This document shows positions 6,251 to 59,144 of a stretch of DNA of 64,000 nt, in pieces. Below the pieces are notes generated by a model. The model did no database searches. It was not told the DNA's origin and saw only the letters and a program-made list of their open reading frames with translations. Source of the DNA: a phage. The stretch lies in sequence record PZ445551.1. The stretch is one strand, 5' to 3'. Position 1 is the stretch's first letter, and the number at the start of each line of letters is the position of its first letter. A program made the position numbers and the translations under genes.

Positions 6251-8830
6251 TCAATGACAACTAGCCCATGAGTTACCAACATCGTAACCAGCAGTTAGAG
6301 GTACATTAAGATTGTAATACTCACCAGCTTTATTAACAGCGATAGATGCTAATTCTCCAGCACGACTGTAGGCTGTAAACCAACCACCTTTTGGAGACTC
6401 ATGTACGTTAGCCCAAATCTTGCCAGTACGTTTCTCTTCCTCTTCTTTCCAGGCATTAACTTTATCCAAACATTCTTTATCAATTTTCTTTTGTTCTTCT
6501 GGATCATCAACTTGAGTCCAACCTAAAGATTCTTTAGAGAACCATTTAAAATGCACCAGATCACGAGTTACTTCAAGCTGTGCTTCATCGTGATATGCAA
6601 TCATTTGTTGAACGAATGACTTATTTTTCCAGTCATCAACAAAAAAGTCAACAGCTAATCCTTCTTCTTCGATAAGATCGTCGTAGATAACCATTGCTCT
6701 TTTTGCACAAATAACACCACCGCTCTGGAACAGGGAGTTAAGTATTGCGTGTGCAGATCGTGTAGGTACTTTCCTACCATCAATACCAAGAATGTATTTC
6801 TTACCTGTTTTAACCCAAAAGTCATGCAGACGTTCTTTAAGAAGAGCAAGAGGCTTTGCAGCTTCCCAGAAAGCATCGTATACAAGCTGTCCTGTATACA
6901 TATCACTACCAATGGTTTTTGCTACTTTTGCAGCTTGAGCACCATAAGTAATACCATACTTAACAGATTTAGCAGGGCTTCGTTCAAACTTACGACCAAT
7001 AGTATCAGAAATACGTCGAGCCATCATTGTATGAACATCATTAGGTTTTTCCAACAATAGAGCATTACAATATTCGTGTGGTTCCTGCTCGTACCGCCAA
7101 CAGTAGTGTGATTCTATTTTTGCCTCAAGAGAATCAAAGTCATAACCAATTTGGAAGTATTTTGGAACTTCTACACCAAATAAGTTACGCATTTCATATC
7201 CGTACAGAGATGTTACACGTGGGATATTTGCTACTAACCTATGTTTCATACGAGATGTAGCTGCATCACACGTTGCAGCAGGAGTTGGTATACGACCATC
7301 AGCCCTTACTGCTGCCAGATAACCCTTATCGTAATCCTCTTCATCTTCTTCCCAATCAGCACCACCCCCTAGAATAGAGTTCCTACGGTGTTTATACGTA
7401 AGATACTGCACAATCTGCGTAGCATAAGGAAACTTTTCACCTAGTGCTTCCAAGTTAGGACAAATATCCTTCTCTTGCCCTTTTGTAAAGGAAGGGTTAG
7501 TAAGCACTTTAACACCACGACCTTTAGCTTTAGCAATACGATCTCTTAGTTTCCATTCCAAAGTTTCTGGTGTGCACTCCAGATGATCACATCTATCCTG
7601 GCAGAAGTTAGATGCTAATGTTTGATCAACATAGTCACGAATAGCTTTCTCCATTTGTGCTTCATCTTTCTTAATCTTAGTGCCAGATTTAAGAGTGATA
7701 TCTTTATCTTTATATTCAGATGGACTCCAACCTAAACCAACTAACCAATTTTTAATATGTGTAGTGTCATCTAAAGTAGCAGGTACTGTAGGATCACAAA
7801 TAGGTTCTTCTGCTGGAATAGGTAGTTTAAACTCTTTACCTAATGCAAATAACCACCAACCATCTTCTTTTTGTACAAGTTCACCAGAATGTTTCTCTGC
7901 AAACTTTATCATGTTACTTGAAGGTTCACCATTCTTTTTAAACTGTAGTTTAGGTGGAATGAATGATTTCAAATAACCTTTAGTAGCAGGTTTAGGAGGT
8001 AGTACAGGTTCTGCCTCTAAACGACATGCTTCCATTCGAGCATCCAGATCACGAATATTATCTTCTGCTTGTTTCATATTGAAAGCAAAGCCACGGTGCT
8101 CTTGACGTGTAATAATATCAGCTACACGTTGTTCTAAGTTAAATGGTTCAGACCACTTATTATAATCACCCCACTCTTCCATCAAATAACGGAACACTGC
8201 GGTGTTAGCTTTGTTATCGTAAATACAGTAATACAGCATATCTGCTGCAAATGTTCTAAATCTTTCAGTTTCAGGGATGTTTTTTCTGAAATCAATTTTA
8301 ACATCCCCTCCAGCTTTCTTAGATAACTCTGCCAGACTATGACCACCGAAGCGATCAGGGTTTAGTGTCTTACTTAAGATCATAGTATCACAAATTTCAA
8401 TGTTACTATTACCCCAAGTATTGTACTTAATACTGTAGTTGAGTTTAAAAAATAATTTAATTGCCAGTAAGTCGAAGTTAATGATGTTGTGTCCAACTAC
8501 TTTGGTAATTTTATAGTTTGAATTACCTTTAAATTTACCTGTTCCATTTACAAAATCAGGAAAATCTTTAAGAGGGAAATGGGTATATTCTAAATGCTCA
8601 TATTCCTCCAGTCGGTATTCATACTTTCCGTCAGTCTCAATATACGGACGACCATCGAAAAGATATTTATCACCATCATGGAAAGCAATAATCTCTCCAG
8701 TATCATGACTTTCGCACACAATACAGTGCATTGCAAAACTATCTTTTAAACGATATGGACTTGCCAAGTAATCTACACTTTCGTCATTAAGCAAGTTGTT
8801 ACTTTCAATGTCGAAAGTAAAAGCTCCCAT
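6251..8830 (-). CDS. DNA polymerase, family A (T7 gp5-like) with 3'-5' exonuclease domain
   Basis: Exo I motif FDIES at N-terminus; Pol motif B (RSPAKSVKYGITYG) and motif C (YHDE); 859 aa. Confidence 0.9.
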   Translation of the reverse strand: MGAFTFDIESNNLLNDESVDYLASPYRLKDSFAMHCIVCESHDTGEIIAFHDGDKYLFDGRPYIETDGKYEYRLEEYEHLEYTHFPLKDFPDFVNGTGKFKGNSNYKITKVVGHNIINFDLLAIKLFFKLNYSIKYNTWGNSNIEICDTMILSKTLNPDRFGGHSLAELSKKAGGDVKIDFRKNIPETERFRTFAADMLYYCIYDNKANTAVFRYLMEEWGDYNKWSEPFNLEQRVADIITRQEHRGFAFNMKQAEDNIRDLDARMEACRLEAEPVLPPKPATKGYLKSFIPPKLQFKKNGEPSSNMIKFAEKHSGELVQKEDGWWLFALGKEFKLPIPAEEPICDPTVPATLDDTTHIKNWLVGLGWSPSEYKDKDITLKSGTKIKKDEAQMEKAIRDYVDQTLASNFCQDRCDHLECTPETLEWKLRDRIAKAKGRGVKVLTNPSFTKGQEKDICPNLEALGEKFPYATQIVQYLTYKHRRNSILGGGADWEEDEEDYDKGYLAAVRADGRIPTPAATCDAATSRMKHRLVANIPRVTSLYGYEMRNLFGVEVPKYFQIGYDFDSLEAKIESHYCWRYEQEPHEYCNALLLEKPNDVHTMMARRISDTIGRKFERSPAKSVKYGITYGAQAAKVAKTIGSDMYTGQLVYDAFWEAAKPLALLKERLHDFWVKTGKKYILGIDGRKVPTRSAHAILNSLFQSGGVICAKRAMVIYDDLIEEEGLAVDFFVDDWKNKSFVQQMIAYHDEAQLEVTRDLVHFKWFSKESLGWTQVDDPEEQKKIDKECLDKVNAWKEEEEKRTGKIWANVHESPKGGWFTAYSRAGELASIAVNKAGEYYNLNVPLTAGYDVGNSWASCH

Positions 8831-44596: not shown

Positions 44597-44800
44597 ATTA
44601 TTTAAAGTTTTTACAGATTTTTGGGTACAAATTTTGAAAATGAAAAGTTCAAGTTTGGTCAAAATTATTTAAAGTTTTTGTACGTATTTCTATTCAGATT
44701 TTGAAAATGAAAACTTCAATTTTTTAAAAATTCCCCAGTTTATTTAAAGTTTTTTTGCCTTTTTCCGTAGAAAAATCAAAAATGAAAAGTTCAATTTCGT
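44597..44800. repeat. Three tandem direct repeats (about 65-75 bp units: TATTTAAAGTTTTT ... GAAAATGAAAAGTTCAA)
   Basis: Repeated unit read directly in an AT-rich non-coding stretch. Confidence 0.6.
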
Positions 44801-44817
44801 GTTTTTATAGGTGTGTT

Positions 44818-44928
44818 AATGAGAATCATTTTCGTTTGTAAATGAGAATCATTATCATTTAACTATGTAAGTGATAATCATTCTCAGTAAGAGAATGAGA
44901 ATCCTTAGCAAATGAGAATTTTCTCATT
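44818..44928. promoter_or_regulatory. Cluster of five AATGAGAATCATT / GATAATCATTCTC iteron-like sites (Fur-box-like), including the perfect 18-bp palindrome AATGAGAATTTTCTCATT
   Basis: Repeated half-sites resembling the GATAAT hexamer of the Fur box; non-coding. Confidence 0.45.
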
Positions 44929-45044
44929 TAGAGAATAACGCGCAGGGGTGGTGTTTGTCTCGCGCTCCCGTGTCCCCTCGCCATACAATAAGAATAGCAT
45001 AACCAACAACAAAAGCAAGCGATTATTTTTATCTTTACATTTCT

Positions 45045-53941: not shown

Positions 53942-54000
53942 TTGACACCGATCCCCCATATGGTATTATTTACCACGTAGGCGGGAAATGGTTTCCCGCC
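53942..54000 (+). promoter_or_regulatory. sigma70-like promoter + 5' GC stem-loop cassette
   Basis: TTGACA at 53942; -10 TATTAT; stem-loop GGCGGG-aaatggttt-CCCGCC. Confidence 0.55.
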
Positions 54001-54023
54001 AGGTAATCAAAAAGGTAAATACT

Positions 54024-54413
54024 ATGCGCAACCTGGTTTCTGTTTCTAACGTTGAAAAATTTCAATCCTTGCAGGGTATCGTTAACAACGTAGCGCCTTT
54101 TTTAGTCAATGGCTTGATTGCAAAGATGAAAAATAAACATCATGCGGCATGGTCTGCTTACTGCTTTGATAATGATGAAAAAGCGGCTGAAATGATGTTA
54201 GATATGCTGTTAAATAGTGTAGAAACATCTTTACCGGAAAACATCGCAGAAGAGATCACCTATCGTTATAATATGGCGATCACTTACCAGGAGGTTGCGC
54301 AATTTAATATGATGGATGATGACGAACAACAGGATCAGGAAATGTTTTGGGAGTATGCAGATCGTCAATCGGCTTTTGATGAAAAGTTAGCGATGTATTA
54401 TAACGAATATTAA
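54024..54413 (+). CDS. Hypothetical acidic protein (candidate DNA mimic)
   Basis: Start at ATG 54024; 129 aa; C-terminal MMDDDEQQDQEMFWEY. Confidence 0.55.
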   Translation: MRNLVSVSNVEKFQSLQGIVNNVAPFLVNGLIAKMKNKHHAAWSAYCFDNDEKAAEMMLDMLLNSVETSLPENIAEEITYRYNMAITYQEVAQFNMMDDDEQQDQEMFWEYADRQSAFDEKLAMYYNEY

Positions 54414-54423
54414 TACACGGTAA

Positions 54424-54455
54424 AAGAAAGGGGCGCACTAAGCGCCCTTTTTTGT
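54424..54455 (+). terminator. Rho-independent terminator (GGGCGC-actaa-GCGCCC + TTTTTT)
   Basis: Perfect stem with a T6 run. Confidence 0.7.
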
Positions 54456-54799
54456 ATTCTTTTTTCACGATGGAAGTAACACGTAAAGAATAAACGTAAA
54501 AGGTGGTGTAAAACAGCCTAAAACCGATTATAACCGCTTAAACAAGGTAGTAATGACTAATCACCTTGCCAGGATGAAAAAGCTGTTATAAAGCTATTTA
54601 GAGCGTTTAAAGCACATAGGAAATAATTTGCTTTTTATCTTGCCTTTTATCCTGCTTTTGATTATTATTATGGAACGGGCGGCACCTGGGGACAGGGGAA
54701 GGTAATCACCGGAAGATCCCGCTATATATTGATAGCTAATATCTATTAAACAACAAAACATCAAAGGAATAAACTATCAAATCTTTACAATTCTACCTA

Positions 54800-54859
54800 T
54801 TGACACAGGATCACCCTTATAATAAGATGTATCCAGTAGGGCGGGAAATGGTTTCCCGC
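54800..54859 (+). promoter_or_regulatory. sigma70-like promoter + 5' GC stem-loop cassette
   Basis: TTGACA at 54800; -10 TAAGAT; stem-loop GGGCGGG-aaatggttt-CCCGC. Confidence 0.55.
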
Positions 54860-54878
54860 TTGATATAGGAATCATACC

Positions 54879-55112
54879 ATGATCGAACAAATTAAAAGCA
54901 CTACACCAAATGTTAACGGCAATGTTTCACACTTTATCGGGGATAATGAAAGGGGTACACCATACGCCGCCGTAACCGTGCAACCTAATGGCGATTATTG
55001 GTTTACCGTGTACGGATCATATTCTTTCGGACGCCCGGCACATGATAAGATCTTGCAAGCGGTTAAGCCTACTGGGAAGAATATCACAGCAGAAAAATTT
55101 TATAAAAAATAG
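54879..55112 (+). CDS. Hypothetical early protein
   Basis: 77-aa ORF. Confidence 0.55.
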   Translation: MIEQIKSTTPNVNGNVSHFIGDNERGTPYAAVTVQPNGDYWFTVYGSYSFGRPAHDKILQAVKPTGKNITAEKFYKK

Positions 55113-55113
55113 C

Positions 55114-55142
55114 TTGCTTTATAGTCTCTGTTAATTTATAGT
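55114..55142 (+). promoter_or_regulatory. sigma70-like promoter (TTGCTT-N17-TATAGT)
   Basis: Hexamers read directly upstream of ATG 55188. Confidence 0.45.
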
Positions 55143-55187
55143 TATCGTGTAGGGCAAACAATTTTAAACGGTAAACGAGGAATCACC

Positions 55188-55571
55188 ATGAGCAATATCA
55201 GCAACCTGGCGGCTACTGTAAACGGTAAAGATTTTAACGGCGCTGTAGATCGTGATCCTATGTGGTGCTTATCAGTGTTTAAAGGCGATCTGGTTGAAGT
55301 TAGAACAACCGAAGGGTATAGCGATGATTATAAATGCGAGATCCATTTACACAACTGGTACACGGGTAAAACTTATGCGCTGAATCATGCGTTTATCGGC
55401 AAGGTTGAATATAGAGAAATGATCGACGAAGAAACGGGGCAAGATTTTAGCGAGCATGTTTATATTCGTTCCGAGACATTAGCCGAACGTTTGATCGAGA
55501 AAATGAAAGCAAAAAATAAAATTAATTTATCTCATTGGATTGATATAACAAACGATCCAGCTTATCAGTAA
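55188..55571 (+). CDS. Hypothetical early protein
   Basis: 127-aa ORF; SD GAGGAATCACC. Confidence 0.6.
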   Translation: MSNISNLAATVNGKDFNGAVDRDPMWCLSVFKGDLVEVRTTEGYSDDYKCEIHLHNWYTGKTYALNHAFIGKVEYREMIDEETGQDFSEHVYIRSETLAERLIEKMKAKNKINLSHWIDITNDPAYQ

Positions 55572-55583
55572 ATAACATTTCAT

Positions 55584-55613
55584 ACCAGGGCGCACAAAGC
55601 GCCCTTTCTTTTT
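55584..55613 (+). terminator. Rho-independent terminator (AGGGCGC-acaaa-GCGCCCT + TTCTTTTT)
   Basis: Perfect stem with T-tract right after the 55188-55571 stop. Confidence 0.7.
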
Positions 55614-55817
55614 ACCTAAATAAAGATGATAGCTTTTACCTATCAAAAACGTTCACCGAAAAAAGTGAATAGATCGCGGTATCGAGCTAATCAAGGAGCA
55701 GATGAACAACCATACCATGAAGATCATAAGGCGCTTACAACGTGTTTTAGACCGCTTATTTTTAATTTCTCAATGTAACTATCTGGCAAAAACAGCCTTT
55801 TTCTTGTCTTTCCTCTT

Positions 55818-55893
55818 AAATGATAATCATTCTTATTTATAGCTGATTATTTATGCAATAAACTGAATAATGCAATAATGATAATCATTCTTA
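55818..55893. promoter_or_regulatory. Two Fur-box-like sites (AATGATAATCATTCTTA)
   Basis: Two copies, each matching most of the E. coli Fur consensus GATAATGATAATCATTATC. Confidence 0.45.
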
Positions 55894-56250
55894 ACTTATG
55901 ACCATCTAACCTATAAAATAATAAGTTATCTAACTAAATTAAAACTAATTATCTCACCTTTATTTATAACTTACTGTTACTATCTCATTGATAACCTTAT
56001 ATTAAACAACAATAACCAATATAAATCATTACTAAGCTAAATATAATCTATCTAACCTTTAAAACTATAACTATAATCTATCGAATTGTTGCACAAAGTA
56101 ACTATTAAATTGTTAGTAACATTACTAAATAATTAATATCCTATCTATTTATGATCTAATCTTTATCTTCCTATCTATTACCTAAATAATCATTTCATAC
56201 AGTAATCATTTCATACAATAATTATAACAAGAAATATAATTCGCAAGCGT

Positions 56251-56430
56251 ATCATTAGCAGCCTATGCCGGACACATAGGCGGCTAATAATAACGCAACT
56301 ACACACCCCACATAATAACCATCACCGATAGTTATTATTTGTGCTTATGTAGCTTGCAACAATTGCAAGCGCAACAATATACATGGTATATTGTATCCCT
56401 TACATTGTTGCGGTGCGTTATTATTAGCTA
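56251..56430. repeat. Large imperfect inverted repeat with nested palindromes (CCTATG/CATAGG; CTTGCAA-caa-TTGCAAG; GCTAATAATAACGCAAC / GTTGCG..GTTATTATTAGC)
   Basis: Inverted-repeat arms read directly in an AT-rich non-coding region; could form a cruciform or hairpin. Confidence 0.5.
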
Positions 56431-56756
56431 ATGTTTAGAACATTGGCTATAATATAAGCTAAGTAATAAGCTATGCAATAATAAACATGGTGAATAATGA
56501 CATTGATGATCATAATGCGCCACCTTCCAGGGGGCGCTATGTGAACACAAAGAAATCTTTCTTGTCAAGAAAAAATATTGCCATTATTGCGCAAAATTAT
56601 TTATATCTGAATAGATGATTTTTCATACTATTGCCCCATATAACATACCTCATTTGTTGAGCATAGTTATAGCCTATTTGTTGAGCCTACTTTCTTAAAA
56701 GCGCAATAAATCAGAATTATCTTGATTTTTAGTCTGTTTTATAGTATAGAAAGTAT

Positions 56757-56778
56757 GCAAATGATAATCATTATCAGC
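56757..56778. promoter_or_regulatory. Fur-box-like site containing AATGATAATCATTATC (16/16 match to consensus positions 4-19)
   Basis: Direct match to the canonical Fur box core. Confidence 0.5.
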
Positions 56779-56940
56779 TATCTTCCACGGGTAGCACTAT
56801 TTCACGCCAGATCATTTCATTTGGCAAGGTGTATATAGATGTTTAGACTTGCCAAGCCATTGATTTACTTAGAATTTATCTGTTTTGTTGTGAGTAGAGC
56901 CTTTCTTGCTCAGAAAATAATCAAAAGTCTTATAAGTCAT

Positions 56941-56976
56941 TGAATGATAATGCAAATGATAATTATTCTCATTGAT
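56941..56976. promoter_or_regulatory. Fur-box-like repeats (TGAATGATAATGCAAATGATAATTATTCTCATTGAT)
   Basis: Tandem GATAAT-type hexamers. Confidence 0.4.
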
Positions 56977-57332
56977 ATTTGAGGGGGACGGTCGGCAGAA
57001 ATCGGGGGGCGCTGAAAATCGCGTTAAGCACCTCTCGCAAGCGAGCAGTATTTTGCGGCAAGTTATTGATATTATTGGCTTTACGCTTATGAAAAGGGGG
57101 TGTGTCGAAATAAATCGGGTATACCGGAAAATTTTTGTGGCATAGATATTTATTTGTCTATATTATGTACAAAAGGGTGTGTTAAAAATATTAGGTATAT
57201 ATAGAATAATTGATAGGGAAATCCTATACTAATTCCTCCATTAATGATGTTTCTATGTTACTGTTCTTGTAACAGATGAAAAGACGCTGTATGATGTGTG
57301 GCATGAAACGTAAATTTATAAAGGAGTCTGAT

Positions 57333-57692
57333 ATGTGTGTTCCTCTTAGCAGTCCACTGCTGTTAGAATTTTACAAAGCATGGATGGAAGATCATTCCTC
57401 AATGCATCGTGAGAATGTTGGTTTGTGTAATTGCCTTATGGATTACCTGGCAACCACTATGTCAAAGAAAAAACCTACGGAAGAAGATATAGAATATTTC
57501 AAGATGGTTCGTAGCAAAACGCTGGAAGAGATGAAACTGCAATTCACGTGTGCTGGGCTATCCTCCTTTCTACCCTTTAATTATGATCTTCTGTGTTATG
57601 AAGATGAAGGTAAGACACATTCTTGCCATACCAACCCAAAGAGATTGCAGTGGGTGAAAGATCGTATTGCCGATTCATGCAAGGGTGTGTAG
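57333..57692 (+). CDS. Cys/His-rich small protein, paralog family member 1
   Basis: Start at ATG 57333 with SD AAGGAG; motifs LLEFYKAW, GLCNCL, QFTCAGL, PFN, RLQWVKDRI shared with three paralogs. Confidence 0.6.
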   Translation: MCVPLSSPLLLEFYKAWMEDHSSMHRENVGLCNCLMDYLATTMSKKKPTEEDIEYFKMVRSKTLEEMKLQFTCAGLSSFLPFNYDLLCYEDEGKTHSCHTNPKRLQWVKDRIADSCKGV

Positions 57693-57693
57693 A

Positions 57694-57849
57694 ATGTTGG
57701 AATTGATTGGGATAGTTTGGTTAATGATAAAAGCAGGTTTCGTCGGTTTCGGACTTCTTATAATTTTGTGTATGTTCCTTAGTGCAATACAGGCATTCTT
57801 TTATCTGCTAGGTAGAATACTTAAGTTGGGAGGTGATAATGAAAAGTAA
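57694..57849 (+). CDS. Small membrane protein (51 aa)
   Basis: Hydrophobic helix IGIVWLMIKAGFVGFGLLIILCMFL; longest ORF from 57667. Confidence 0.45.
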   Translation: MLELIGIVWLMIKAGFVGFGLLIILCMFLSAIQAFFYLLGRILKLGGDNEK

Positions 57850-58207
57850 TATTCCGTTGAGTAGTGCAGCTTTAATACGATTCTATAAAGCATGGATTGC
57901 CAACCATCCTGCAATGAATCGCACAACGAGTGGCTTATGTGGTTGTCTGGTAGATTATGTAGATGATTTTGTTGGTGAGATAACTAGAGAAGAAGATAAA
58001 AGATGGCGTGATCGTTTGTTGGATAGTTTGAAATACGAAATGAGGAAACAATTTACATGTGCAGGACTGGACTACAATCTTCCGTTCAATGCAGATTGCA
58101 TGGATTACCTTTCAGAGTGTATAGACTTGGCGTGTCATACCAACACGTTACGTCTTCAATGGGTGAAAGACAGAATCGAAGATGCAAATAATGCTTGCAT
58201 TGAATAG
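57839..58207 (+). CDS. Cys/His-rich small protein, paralog family member 2
   Basis: SD GGGAGGTGATA; motifs LIRFYKAW, GLCGCL, QFTCAGL, PFN, RLQWVKDRI. Confidence 0.6.
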   Translation: MKSNIPLSSAALIRFYKAWIANHPAMNRTTSGLCGCLVDYVDDFVGEITREEDKRWRDRLLDSLKYEMRKQFTCAGLDYNLPFNADCMDYLSECIDLACHTNTLRLQWVKDRIEDANNACIE

Positions 58208-58277
58208 AAATGTCTGTACACTGTGTTCCATAAGATATACAATATCGCGCATAACAAACTACTAATGAGAGGTGTAA

Positions 58278-58736
58278 ATGAAAACTGTATCTTTGTATCT
58301 TGCTAACACGGAGCGTGTACATAATCTTGTAAAAGAATGCGGTGTGAGTGTTCAATTTAATACAGGAAAGCCTTCCGTGGTGACAGGCAGTGAGATATGT
58401 GTTATTGATTTCCTCAATGAATATTTTCGTGGAAAACCTATTGCTCGTCACTTCATTCAAGAAATGCGAGATGTACTACAGGCTTATGAATTCTACCCTG
58501 AAGTTTGTGAACGCTATGAAACGATTCTTAGCTCTGTAGAAGATCCAGATACTAGTGAAACAGGTGCTTCCCACTTGCTGTGGATGTTGAATGAAATTCA
58601 GGATGGGTGTAATGGTATGTCTGAAACCAAACGCCATCGTTGGCTAGGCTATATTCAGGGTGTTATGGTTATGAAAAACCTTATTACAGTGAATGATGAA
58701 CGTAACGCTACACGCCCAGTCTTTAATGGAGCATAA
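58278..58736 (+). CDS. Hypothetical protein
   Basis: 152-aa ORF; SD GAGAGGTG. Confidence 0.6.
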   Translation: MKTVSLYLANTERVHNLVKECGVSVQFNTGKPSVVTGSEICVIDFLNEYFRGKPIARHFIQEMRDVLQAYEFYPEVCERYETILSSVEDPDTSETGASHLLWMLNEIQDGCNGMSETKRHRWLGYIQGVMVMKNLITVNDERNATRPVFNGA

Positions 58737-58737
58737 C

Positions 58738-58953
58738 ATGAAAAGCATTAGGGTGTGTATCGAAAATAATTGTGGTTATCTGGGGTTGACACACGTCGCT
58801 TTCCCTCTTATATTGGATGCCGATATAGCTTACAGCGGAGTTGCTTATGTGTCATTCAAAACAATGAGCCAAGTACCTGGCTGGAATTGGGAAGTGGTTG
58901 ATGTTGTTGAAGGAGAAGACTATGTTTTCCTTCCACACGAATATACAGTTTAA
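58738..58953 (+). CDS. Hypothetical small protein
   Basis: Start at ATG 58738 with SD GGAGCATAAC; 71 aa. Confidence 0.5.
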   Translation: MKSIRVCIENNCGYLGLTHVAFPLILDADIAYSGVAYVSFKTMSQVPGWNWEVVDVVEGEDYVFLPHEYTV

Positions 58954-58967
58954 AAGAGGAAAAGAAG

Positions 58968-59144
58968 ATGGATAAACAAACTACTATGTACTTAGTAACA
59001 AAGAATACCCCAGGCTGGAGCCAATGCAGCACTGTTCCTTATAAGATCTGTGCAACATTAGAACTAGCACAACGTGCAGAAGCAGAAGTGAATGCCATGC
59101 AATACAGCTATGGTGAAATCATTCCTTTTACTCTTGAACAATAA
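58968..59144 (+). CDS. Small hypothetical protein (58 aa, below the ORF-track threshold)
   Basis: ATG 58968 after AAGAGGAAAAGAAG; hand-translated. Confidence 0.45.
   Translation: MDKQTTMYLVTKNTPGWSQCSTVPYKICATLELAQRAEAEVNAMQYSYGEIIPFTLEQ

What the first reader, a model, noticed from the sequence alone, without database searches (positions are those of the whole stretch)
56251..56430. Large imperfect inverted repeat with nested palindromes in the 55.6-57.3 kb AT-rich region
Arms GCTAATAATAACGCAAC and GTTGCG(GTGC)GTTATTATTAGC flank about 107 bp centred on the palindrome CTTGCAACAATTGCAAG, and a second hairpin (CCTATG-ccggaca-CATAGG) lies just upstream. The surrounding 1.6 kb is non-coding and full of short direct repeats (ATCTAACC, TAATCATTTCATACA). 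This is a cruciform-capable element, a candidate origin, resolution site or packaging signal.
Basis: seen in the sequence. Interest (0 to 1): 0.5.

Follow-up and report, generated by a model that had tools for sequence, protein, structure and literature searches.

The report
Conserved folded element beside phage terminal repeat
The inverted repeat is the visible part of a 180-base folded element (one hairpin plus a four-armed junction) that all phi92-like and phAPEC8-like phages keep, by compensating mutations, about 250 bases from the repeat that forms their DNA ends; it is undescribed and probably acts in making or packaging those ends, or is a new small RNA.

Summary
The window is coliphage VivaForever, a phi92-like Justusliebigvirus. 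Positions 56261-56428 fold into hairpin P1 plus a four-way junction: a 15-bp closing stem P2 and arms P3, P4 and P5. In 22 distinct homologues from all Stephanstirmvirinae clades, 98.6% of pair cells are standard pairs and 15 of 51 pairs carry compensatory double changes. No shuffle (0 of 500) reached the observed paired fraction or covariation score.

The element matches no Rfam family or tRNA, is single-copy, and was not found in plasmids or bacterial genomes.

Mapping the annotated phi92 terminal repeat, and the PhageTerm-based ends of phage BME3, puts the 343-bp direct terminal repeat at 56684-57026. The element therefore lies 256 bp inside the right genome end, at the concatemer junction.

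Folding is strand-biased. The minus strand, which runs from the repeat into the genome, is 12.6-24 kcal/mol more stable in every homologue and turns plus-strand C·A mismatches into G·U pairs. A symmetric cruciform is therefore unlikely.

rV5-like and 4MG-like phages carry analogous nested elements in the same non-coding region as the terminal repeat.

Whether the active form is RNA or single-stranded DNA is unresolved. My best reading is a cis-acting genome-end element, with T7's junction hairpin as the closest precedent. A new non-coding RNA is a close rival.

The parts
56261..56281 (-). P1 hairpin: 7-bp stem GCCTATG/CATAGGC with a 7-nt loop. On the minus strand it gains a U·G closing pair.
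   Evidence: Three of its pairs show Watson-Crick to Watson-Crick double changes (GC/CG, CG/GC, UA/CG) and none is broken.
56283..56297 (-). P2 closing stem, arm nearer the upstream genes: GCTAATAATAACGCA.
   Evidence: Perfectly complementary over 15 nt to 56414-56428 (I12). Three pairs covary (AU/CG, CG/GC, GC/CG/AU) and 100% of cells are paired.
56299..56352 (-). P3 arm: outer helix CTACA/TGTAG, an internal loop, and a distal 9-12-bp hairpin (56312-56338).
   Evidence: The distal hairpin has a different sequence in every clade but stays complementary, with 6 of 9 pairs doubly changed. The outer helix keeps all pairs only on the minus strand, through A-U/G·U and U·G/C-G exchanges.
56353..56369 (-). 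P4: palindrome CTTGCAA-nnn-TTGCAAG. The stem is invariant and the 3-nt loop varies.
   Evidence: The stem is identical in all homologues apart from one G·U cell, while the loop reads CAA, TAA, TTA, TGC, TGA or TGT. Because the stem does not vary, it gives no evidence for or against pairing. It could equally be a protein-binding site.
56370..56412 (-). P5 arm: helix CGCAACAAT/ATTGTTGCG enclosing a clade-specific insert and the conserved motif CTTACA.
   Evidence: Three pairs covary (C-G/U-A). The ESCO5 clade has a U·G pair on the plus strand here, which is the one clear exception to the minus-strand bias.
56414..56428 (-). P2 closing stem, arm nearer the terminal repeat: TGCGTTATTATTAGC.
   Evidence: As for 56283-56297.
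56250..56260 (.). Third copy of the (T)ATCATTAGCA motif. It can pair with 56283-56292 and so offers an alternative to P2.
   Evidence: Inverted repeat I8 has 18-nt arms that are 89% complementary. The minus-strand minimum-energy fold of the 201-nt stretch uses this alternative pairing. ATTAG is conserved at this position in all clades.
55800..56250 (.). Tract of 22% G+C with same-orientation short repeats (CTATCTA, ATCTAACC, AATCATTnCA at 16-nt spacing). It adjoins the element on the side away from the terminal repeat.
   Evidence: An A+T-rich tract of 19-34% G+C lies on this side in every Stephanstirmvirinae clade examined.
56684..57026 (.). Direct terminal repeat, single copy in this assembly, so this is the concatemer junction and the physical genome ends.
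   Evidence: phi92 record FR775895.2 annotates identical 343-bp left and right terminal repeats. They map here at 98% identity. The BME3 record starts at window position 57025, and its 342-bp PhageTerm-based repeat ends at 56684.
56651..56690 (+). Two tandem copies of TTTGTTGAGC(A/C). The second spans the left boundary of the repeat (TTG^AGCC). The right boundary reads CGCGTTA^AGCACC at 57026/57027.
   Evidence: (D10). The same boundary motifs, 319-342 bp apart, occur in all seven Stephanstirmvirinae representatives examined.

Best explanation
**What is shown.**
- The inverted repeat belongs to a 180-nt element: hairpin P1 followed by a four-way junction closed by the 15-bp stem P2.
- Its base pairing has been maintained by selection throughout the Stephanstirmvirinae.
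- It lies in the non-coding right end of the genome, 256 bp inside the 343-bp direct terminal repeat, so it is at the concatemer junction.
- The strand that keeps all pairs is the one running 5' to 3' from the repeat into the genome (window minus strand). A very A+T-rich repeat tract follows it on that strand.

**What is inferred.**
- The element is a cis-acting part of the genome-end machinery and works in single-stranded form.
- While concatemers are processed, DNA synthesis or strand displacement that starts at the repeat and runs inward exposes this strand.
- The strand folds. The nested hairpins bring the distant P2 arms together.
- The fold then acts as a turn-around or priming and recognition structure. 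It lets the single repeat shared by two neighbouring genomes be copied before terminase cuts at the TTG^AGC and TTA^AGC sites.
- This is the route proposed for the hairpin intermediate of phage T7.
- A transcript of the same strand that stays near its template could play the same role.
For: **Base pairing is under selection.** 98.6% of 1110 pair cells are standard pairs and 15 of 51 pairs have double changes. No shuffle (0 of 500) reached the observed paired fraction or covariation score. Slid controls reach only 26-55% paired.

**The genome terminus is adjacent.** The phi92 terminal repeats map to 56684-57026, and the BME3 PhageTerm-based ends agree to within 1 nt. The boundary motifs and the 319-342 bp spacing between them are conserved in every clade. 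The element lies 186-461 bp from the last upstream-boundary motif.

**The bias is strand-specific.** The minus strand is 12.6-24 kcal/mol more stable in all 20 homologues. Consensus energies are -58.6 (minus) against -43.1 (plus). On the same mirrored structure there are 57 G·U cells on the minus strand against 7 on the plus strand.

**The geometry repeats in a sister group.** In rV5-like LL12 the PhageTerm repeat is 104966-105424. A 184-nt nested element sits at 105636-105819, and again the strand running from the repeat inward folds better (-87 against -77). The bov11CS3 record starts exactly at that repeat.

**The flanks look like protein-binding DNA.** Same-orientation repeats (AATCATTnCA, ATTAGCA) surround the element, and the P4 stem is invariant while its loop varies.

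**No transcription signals are conserved.** No promoter or terminator brackets the element consistently.

**There is a precedent.** A hairpin DNA containing the terminal repeat is found during T7 infection and has been invoked in repeat duplication (PMC4281155). The mechanism for phages with direct terminal repeats is still described as poorly understood (PMC13595956).
Against: - There is no direct evidence that this DNA strand is ever single-stranded in vivo.
- A simple turn-around needs only an inverted repeat. It does not need a four-way junction with a conserved core and conserved loop and junction bases. That pattern, the expansion of arms by inserted hairpins, and the fixed G·U pairs are more typical of a structured RNA.
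- With DNA energy parameters the two strands differ by only 5 kcal/mol.
- The strand bias rests on few independent events, about 7 against 2 by my own reading of the per-pair table.
- The terminase cut sites have their own motif, so the element is not required to explain cutting.
- In 4MG-like phages the element may lie inside the repeat rather than beside it, which fits the T7 geometry less well.
- The T7 hairpin pathway is itself not firmly established.
Confidence: 0.38

Rival explanations
1. It is a free-standing gene for a structured non-coding RNA of about 180-350 nt. The RNA would be transcribed on the minus strand, inward from the terminal-repeat side, and would act in trans. Possible roles include a decoy or regulator of a host or phage protein, an anti-defence RNA, or a packaging RNA in the manner of phi29 pRNA.
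For: - The fold is a four-way junction with almost no linker bases, a conserved core and variable arm tips with inserted hairpins.
- G·U pairs are fixed or exchanged on one strand only, and that strand gains 12.6-24 kcal/mol with RNA parameters in all 20 homologues.
- The same strand polarity is seen in LL12. There a strong promoter, TTGACA-16-CATAAT, sits at the repeat boundary and points at the element.
- A minus-strand bias is also seen in the 4MG-type analogues.
- Size and near-terminal position resemble phi29 pRNA (own knowledge).
Against: - No promoter or intrinsic terminator is conserved on either strand across clades.
- The 50 bp next to the element on the repeat side is the most variable stretch within the genus.
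- The LL12 promoter is not conserved in bov11CS3.
- The helices are unusually long and perfect for an RNA. The six covarying pairs of P1 and P2 show only Watson-Crick to Watson-Crick changes, with no G·U intermediates.
- The P4 stem is invariant while its loop is free, which is the pattern of a protein-binding DNA palindrome.
- No Rfam family matches.
Confidence: 0.33
2. It is the core of a replication origin. In one version a transcript started on the repeat side folds into the element, runs into the adjacent tract of 20-23% G+C, and forms a stable RNA-DNA hybrid there that primes DNA synthesis. This is the logic of ColE1 RNA II, the T4 oriF and oriG origins and the T7 primary origin. In the other version an initiator protein binds the short direct repeats and melts the tract.
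For: - A tract of 19-34% G+C adjoins the element on the downstream side of the favoured strand in every Stephanstirmvirinae clade. In the window it is 22% G+C over 450 bp.
- Same-orientation short repeats fill that tract.
- The strand polarity points into the tract.
Against: - The repeat motifs are lineage-specific. CTATCTA is almost absent from other genera.
- The Vequintavirinae analogues have no comparable A+T-rich tract.
- No conserved promoter was found.
- GC skew in the window follows gene orientation and shows no origin signature here.
- No initiator gene was identified, and this was not tested.
Confidence: 0.15
3. It is a duplex-DNA site. A cruciform extrudes from supercoiled DNA, or the palindromic half-sites are bound by a dimeric protein such as the small terminase subunit. 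Both strands would then be equivalent.
For: - Both strands fold significantly with DNA parameters (z = -7.2 and -7.4).
- The A+T-rich context would favour opening of the duplex.
- The P4 palindrome is invariant.
Against: - The covarying P2 arms are 116 nt apart.
- The P3 and P5 sequences change completely between clades while staying complementary. Co-evolution of protein half-sites does not explain that.
- A consistent strand bias is not expected for a symmetric structure.
Confidence: 0.08
4. It is a chance or neutral palindrome cluster in low-complexity A+T-rich DNA and has no function.
For: The surrounding DNA is A+T-rich and repetitive, so short inverted repeats are common. The repeat scan reported 70 inverted pairs in 1.9 kb.
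Against: - Compensatory changes occur in 15 pairs across 22 sequences.
- The element is conserved in 133 phage records across genera.
- The fold z-score reaches -7.9.
Confidence: 0.01

Closest known systems
Right-end / concatemer-junction region of phage T7 and T3 (pacB, the phiOR promoter, and the inverted repeat where the hairpin-ended junction fragment forms)
   Same: - Both phages have short exact direct terminal repeats and form concatemers with one repeat per junction.
- Both have an inverted repeat just outside the repeat on the unique side. I recall it at about 190 bp from the mature T7 right end. Here it lies 256 bp from the repeat boundary.
- In T7 the same few hundred bp also hold promoter and origin functions.
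- A hairpin DNA containing the repeat has been reported and invoked in repeat duplication (PMC4281155, citing Chung and Hinkle 1990). The positional details are from my own knowledge.
   Different: - There is no sequence relation.
- The host phages are unrelated: a myovirus of about 146 kb against a podovirus of about 40 kb.
- The element here is a 180-nt multi-helix junction with a conserved core, not a simple imperfect palindrome.
- No hairpin-ended DNA has been shown for these phages.
- These phages have no known phage RNA polymerase promoter at this position.
phi29 packaging RNA (pRNA, Rfam RF00044)
   Same: It is a structured RNA of about 170 nt, encoded a few hundred bp from a genome end and transcribed inward from that end (own knowledge).
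   Different: - No match to the Rfam family.
- The fold is different: pRNA has a three-way junction with two interlocking loops.
- phi29 uses protein-primed, terminal-protein-linked DNA without terminal repeats or concatemers.
- Transcription of the element here is unproven.
Transcription-primed origins (ColE1 RNA II; T4 oriF and oriG; T7 primary origin)
   Same: The layout matches in outline: a folded element followed, on the same strand, by a very A+T-rich unwinding tract.
   Different: No conserved promoter was found, there is no sequence similarity, and no evidence of initiation at this position.
Parvovirus / AAV inverted terminal repeat (outer palindrome A-A' enclosing the small palindromes B-B' and C-C')
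   Different: The AAV repeat lies at the physical end of a single-stranded genome. The element here lies about 600 bp from the end of a double-stranded genome and outside the terminal repeat.
Analogous nested elements of Vequintavirinae found here (rV5/LL12 type, 118 records; 4MG/PVP-SE1/KB57 type, 63 records)
   Same: - They lie in the same terminal non-coding region.
- They are 184-320 nt long, with an 18-23-bp closing stem around several hairpins.
- The closing stem shows compensatory changes.
- They fold better on one strand. In LL12 that is the strand running inward from the mapped repeat.
- Sources.
   Different: - They are not detectably homologous. The covariance model built here gives only 16-22 bits on them.
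- The element lies after the repeat in the usual rV5 orientation.
- In 4MG-like phages it may lie inside the repeat.

Membership tests
Any described RNA family (Rfam 15, 4227 models, including pRNA, ribozymes, Y RNA and 6S RNA) | A match to a family covariance model at or near its gathering score | tested here: not met
   cmscan of 54000-59000 on both strands, up to E = 10, found no hit overlapping 56250-56430. The four weak hits elsewhere are far below their gathering scores.
tRNA / tmRNA | A cloverleaf detected by ARAGORN | tested here: not met
   No tRNA or tmRNA gene was found in the whole window.
T7-type junction hairpin element | The phage has short, exact direct terminal repeats | tested here: met
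   The phi92 repeats of 343 bp map to 56684-57026, and BME3 has a 342-bp repeat by PhageTerm.
T7-type junction hairpin element | An inverted repeat lies just outside the repeat, on the unique right-end side of the junction | tested here: met
   The element ends at 56428 and the repeat starts at 56684. The last upstream-boundary motif lies 186-461 bp past the element in the seven representatives examined.
T7-type junction hairpin element | Hairpin-ended (fold-back) DNA is present in infected cells and depends on terminase | not testable with these tools
   This needs intracellular DNA analysis.
Iteron-type or transcription-primed replication origin | An A+T-rich unwinding tract next to the element | tested here: met
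   The tract 55800-56250 is 22% G+C. It is 19-34% G+C in all Stephanstirmvirinae clades.
Iteron-type or transcription-primed replication origin | Conserved iterons or a conserved promoter directed into the tract | tested here: inconclusive
   Same-orientation repeats are present but differ between genera. Only weak, non-conserved promoter-like sites were found.
Iteron-type or transcription-primed replication origin | Demonstrated initiation of DNA synthesis at the site | not testable with these tools
   GC skew in the window follows gene orientation only.
phi29-type packaging RNA | The element is transcribed as a discrete RNA and is needed for packaging | not testable with these tools
   No transcriptome for these phages was found in the paper library.
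Classical cruciform (a simple palindrome extruding symmetrically) | Adjacent or nearly adjacent arms, with both strands equivalent | tested here: not met
   The arms are 116 nt apart and enclose three independent helices. On the mirrored structure, standard pairs make up 98.6% of cells on the minus strand against 94.1% on the plus strand.
Intrinsic terminator | A G+C-rich hairpin directly followed by a T run | tested here: not met
   The only terminator-like site in 55000-58000 is at 55587-55605, after the last upstream gene.
Protein-coding sequence | A conserved open reading frame | tested here: not met
   No ORF of 40 aa or more lies within 55843-56427. The homologues differ by indels that are not multiples of three and by arm swaps. 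The 31-aa ORFs in the VivaForever record are not annotated in phi92.

The most novel reading that the evidence does not exclude
The rV5, phi92 and phAPEC8 supergroup of large coliphages, several hundred sequenced genomes, carries a so far undescribed class of strand-specific four-way-junction elements next to the terminal repeat. These elements would be the missing cis-acting component of repeat duplication and packaging initiation in phages with direct terminal repeats. They could act as a fold-back DNA primer. More radically, they could act as a packaging or priming RNA, which would be the first pRNA-like RNA outside the phi29 group.
Probability: 0.3. Interest if true: 0.8.

Novelty: new variant of a known kind. 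Interest (0 to 1): 0.62.

Why it matters
**An open problem.** How phages with exact direct terminal repeats regenerate two repeats from the single copy in a concatemer junction is still poorly understood. How terminase finds the junction is also unclear. This holds even for T7 and T5, according to the 2026 review PMC13595956.

**A testable handle.** This work defines a precisely bounded, covariation-supported element beside a mapped terminus, in a group of easily grown coliphages that are widely used for therapy. Mutations that disrupt P2, and second mutations that restore its pairing, can be designed directly from the alignment.

**If it is an RNA.** It would be a new phage RNA family for Rfam, present in at least 133 genomes, with analogues in about 180 more.

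**A practical consequence.** The analysis fixes the physical ends of VivaForever and related records. Most of those records are deposited with arbitrary start points.

Tried and rejected
1. **Known RNA families and tRNAs.** Rfam and ARAGORN gave nothing.
2. **Coding sequence.** No conserved ORF exists.
3. **Conserved sigma-70 promoter or terminator around the element.** I inspected the promoter scan of the window and the cross-clade flank sequences printed, and I checked variability within the genus. Nothing was consistent.
4. **More homologues from metagenomes.** My pattern was too loose. 120 loci came back, and the covariance model kept only four of them (L032, L042, L087, L113).
5. **Occurrence outside phages.** There was no plasmid hit. 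The one bacterial contig hit matches only the P4 palindrome by chance, at 17 bits.
6. **Terminal repeats claimed in the phiWec186 and SalP219 records.** They are 148-bp and 127-bp end overlaps at unrelated positions, most likely assembly overlaps, so they are uninformative.
7. **The phi92 paper (PMC3457257).** It is not held in the library, so I could not read how the phi92 ends were mapped.
8. **Transcriptome papers for these phages.** None were found.
9. **Terminal-repeat position in 4MG-like phages.** It could not be settled. Only motif spacing suggests that the element lies inside the repeat.
10. **Homology between the Stephanstirmvirinae and Vequintavirinae elements.** The covariance model gives only marginal scores.

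Full report
**Identity of the window.** The 1.9 kb around the finding is 100% identical to Escherichia phage VivaForever (PP925843.1, reverse strand). It is 93-97% identical to phi92, alia, EmilieFrey and other members of Justusliebigvirus, subfamily Stephanstirmvirinae.

**The observation.**
- The region 55.6-57.27 kb has no ORF of 60 aa or more, and phi92's curated record annotates no gene there.
- The 15-nt perfect inverted repeat (56283-56297 with 56414-56428) exceeds the longest repeat in 40 shuffles, which was 12 nt.
- A 201-nt stretch folds far better than shuffled sequence as RNA and as DNA, on both strands, with z between -5.9 and -7.9.
- In a sliding scan of the whole non-coding tract, this is the one outstanding structured block.

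**Anatomy.** I collected homologues from annotated phage records, IMG/VR and metagenomes, giving 20-22 distinct sequences. They cover phi92-like, phAPEC8/ESCO5-like, phiWec186-like, Klebsiella (KP2025, FKP3, KP13-26), Citrobacter Tr1 and an uncultured lineage. The consensus has these parts.
- P1 is a hairpin at 56261-56281.
- One base further on begins a four-way junction, closed by the 15-bp stem P2.
- Inside the junction are a long arm P3 (56299-56352), the palindrome P4 (56353-56369) and arm P5 (56370-56412).

**Covariation.** I built a covariance model and aligned 22 sequences to it.
- 98.6% of 1110 pair cells are standard pairs.
- 15 of 51 pairs carry changes on both sides.
- The covariation score is 0.249, against 0.101 ± 0.007 in shuffles (0 of 500 reach it).
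- Sliding the partner columns drops pairing to 26-55%.
- P1 and P2 each have three pairs that switch between Watson-Crick types.
- The distal P3 hairpin has a different sequence in each clade.
- P5 carries clade-specific inserted hairpins.
- The P4 stem never varies while its loop does, so P4 says nothing about pairing and could be a protein-binding palindrome.

Base pairing over a distance of 116 nt is therefore under selection. That requires a single-stranded state.

**Distribution.** The element occurs in 133 phage records, all Stephanstirmvirinae or mislabelled copies of them, and once per genome. It is absent from the plasmid collection. The single bacterial-genome hit is a chance match to P4 alone. 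Neither Rfam nor ARAGORN recognises it.

**The terminus.** The phi92 record annotates identical 343-bp left and right direct terminal repeats.
- They map at 98% identity to window 56684-57026.
- BME3 has a 342-bp repeat determined with PhageTerm (PMC12210895). Its record starts at window position 57025, and the repeat ends at 56684.
- The window therefore contains the concatemer junction, and the element ends 256 bp before it.
- The boundaries read TTTGTTG^AGCC on the left and CGCGTTA^AGCACC on the right.
- The same two motifs lie 319-342 bp apart in every Stephanstirmvirinae representative examined. They are often preceded by GGGGGCG and a small hairpin, and sometimes by extra upstream copies.
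- The cut sites thus have their own signal, and the element is a separate conserved component 186-461 bp away.
- Two records that claim terminal repeats elsewhere only have 127-148-bp end overlaps.

**Strand bias.**
- With RNA parameters the minus strand is 12.6-24 kcal/mol more stable than the plus strand in all 20 homologues, with 4-9 G·U pairs against 0-3.
- Consensus folding gives -58.6 against -43.1 kcal/mol.
- On one structure and its mirror image, standard pairs make up 98.6% of cells on the minus strand and 94.1% on the plus strand.
- Two pairs are G·U in most or all sequences. Setting those aside, I count about seven independent G·U events on the minus strand against two on the plus strand. 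The clearest plus-strand case is P5 in the ESCO5 clade (my reading).
- The outer helix of P3 is instructive. CUACAU and CUACGC both pair fully with GUGUAG on the minus strand, whereas each variant has one mismatch on the plus strand.
- With DNA parameters the strands differ by only 5 kcal/mol.
- The bias argues against a symmetric cruciform. It fits an RNA, or one particular DNA strand.

**Flanks.**
- On the side away from the repeat lies a tract of 20-23% G+C with same-orientation short repeats. An A+T-rich tract on this side is conserved across the subfamily, but the repeat motifs are not.
- Copies of AATCATTnCA and ATTAGCA flank the element in one orientation. A third ATTAGC copy just before P1 offers an alternative pairing to P2.
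- I found no promoter or terminator conserved across clades on either strand. The 50 bp on the repeat side is the most variable stretch within the genus.

**Relatives outside the subfamily.** Vequintavirinae phages share a homologue of the upstream gene. In the corresponding non-coding region they have large nested elements of their own.
- The 4MG/PVP-SE1/KB57 type (63 records) has a 19-23-bp closing stem with compensatory changes, around three arms. It folds 7-19 kcal/mol better on the minus strand. It lies between two TTTTTGAGCAT motifs 388-502 bp apart, which may mean it lies inside that group's repeat.
- The rV5/LL12 type (118 records) is a 184-nt element at 105636-105819, about 210 bp after the PhageTerm-mapped 459-bp repeat (PMC6658697).
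- Another rV5-type record, bov11CS3, begins exactly at that repeat.
- In LL12 the plus strand is the better folder (-87 against -77). This is again the strand that runs from the repeat into the genome.
- LL12 has a strong promoter-like site at the repeat boundary pointing at the element, but bov11CS3 does not conserve it.
- My covariance model does not detect these elements convincingly, so homology is open.

**Interpretation.**
- Shown: a conserved, pairing-constrained, strand-biased, branched element sits at the concatemer junction.
- Inferred: it acts in cis on genome ends.
- I favour, with modest confidence (0.38), a role for the inward-running strand as a fold-back, priming or recognition structure during duplication of the terminal repeat and the start of packaging. 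The only precedent is the T7 hairpin intermediate (plus my own knowledge of Chung and Hinkle 1990). Reviews still call this step poorly understood.
- A discrete non-coding RNA is nearly as likely (0.33). It is favoured by the junction architecture and the G·U pattern, and weakened by the missing transcription signals and the very regular helices.
- A transcription-primed or iteron origin using the adjacent A+T-rich tract (0.15) and a duplex protein site or cruciform (0.08) remain possible.
- Chance is excluded.

**Verdict.** The finding is real, and more interesting than a palindrome in A+T-rich DNA. It is an undescribed, subfamily-wide structured element tied to the physical genome end.

Noticed in passing
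window 56684-57026: The physical genome ends (a 343-bp direct terminal repeat) fall here. The VivaForever record, like most related records, is deposited with an arbitrary start. The boundary motifs TTG^AGC and TTA^AGC, usually preceded by GGGGGCG and a small hairpin, are conserved across the subfamily and look like the terminase cut signal.
   Followed up: yes
window 55819-55835, 55874-55892, 56757-56775, 56955-56971: These are near-consensus Fur-box-like palindromes (AATGATAATCATT). The site at 56757-56775 matches 17 of 19 positions of the E. coli Fur box GATAATGATAATCATTATC. The whole window has 4 sites (5 strand matches) with 3 or fewer mismatches, against 0.05 expected. Two of the four listed palindromes lie inside the terminal repeat. 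Phapecoctavirus repeats carry them too. They may be iron- or Fur-controlled early promoters, or the operator of a phage repressor.
   Followed up: partly
window 44800-44935: A second intergenic array of five or six similar boxes (AATGAGAATCATT) lies in a gap of about 670 bp between ORFs, in the lowest-G+C kilobase of the window. It looks like the same regulatory motif used at another promoter region.
   Followed up: no
L150 (LL12 MH491969) 105636-105819; L004 (4MG) 6431-6645; L005, L007, L151-L154: Vequintavirinae phages carry analogous nested, covarying, strand-biased elements in the terminal non-coding region. In LL12 the element lies about 210 bp after the mapped repeat. In 4MG-like phages it lies between two TTTTTGAGCAT motifs about 390 bp apart, so possibly inside the repeat.
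   Followed up: partly
L150 1525-1600 (LL12 105424-105500): Directly after the LL12 terminal repeat there are about eight (T/G)GACA(C/T) repeats at roughly 10-11-bp spacing, overlapping two strong promoter-like sites. Phasing at the helical repeat suggests an array of protein-binding sites at the repeat boundary.
   Followed up: no
window 56250-56292 versus 56283-56428: There are three copies of the ATTAGC motif, two direct and one inverted. They allow two mutually exclusive pairings, an extended P1 or P2. The minus-strand minimum-energy fold of the 201-nt stretch picks the extended P1. This could be a conformational switch.
   Followed up: partly
window 56400-56680: The spacer between the element and the repeat is moderately structured on the plus strand (z between -4 and -6). 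It includes the hairpin GCGCCACCTTCCAGGGGGCGC and the palindrome TTTCTTGTCAAGAAA, which reads TTGACA on the minus strand.
   Followed up: no
window 55587-55605: A strong intrinsic terminator (7-bp stem with 6 G-C pairs, then a T run) closes the last upstream gene, the Gp30.8-like phi92 gp248 homologue. Read-through from that operon into the element on the plus strand is therefore unlikely.
   Followed up: partly
phage records MG065639, MG065645, MG065656, MG065689 and others: Records labelled 'Campylobacter phage' with host C. jejuni are 95-99% identical to these coliphages across this region. Similar records match the rV5-type element. They are probably mislabelled or contaminant genomes.
   Followed up: no
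L002 (PP925843.1 annotation), window about 55700-57200: The VivaForever record annotates about nine hypothetical proteins of 31-46 aa across the non-coding terminal region, two of them on the element. phi92 and most other records annotate none, and the alignment shows no conserved frame. These are likely over-predictions.
   Followed up: partly
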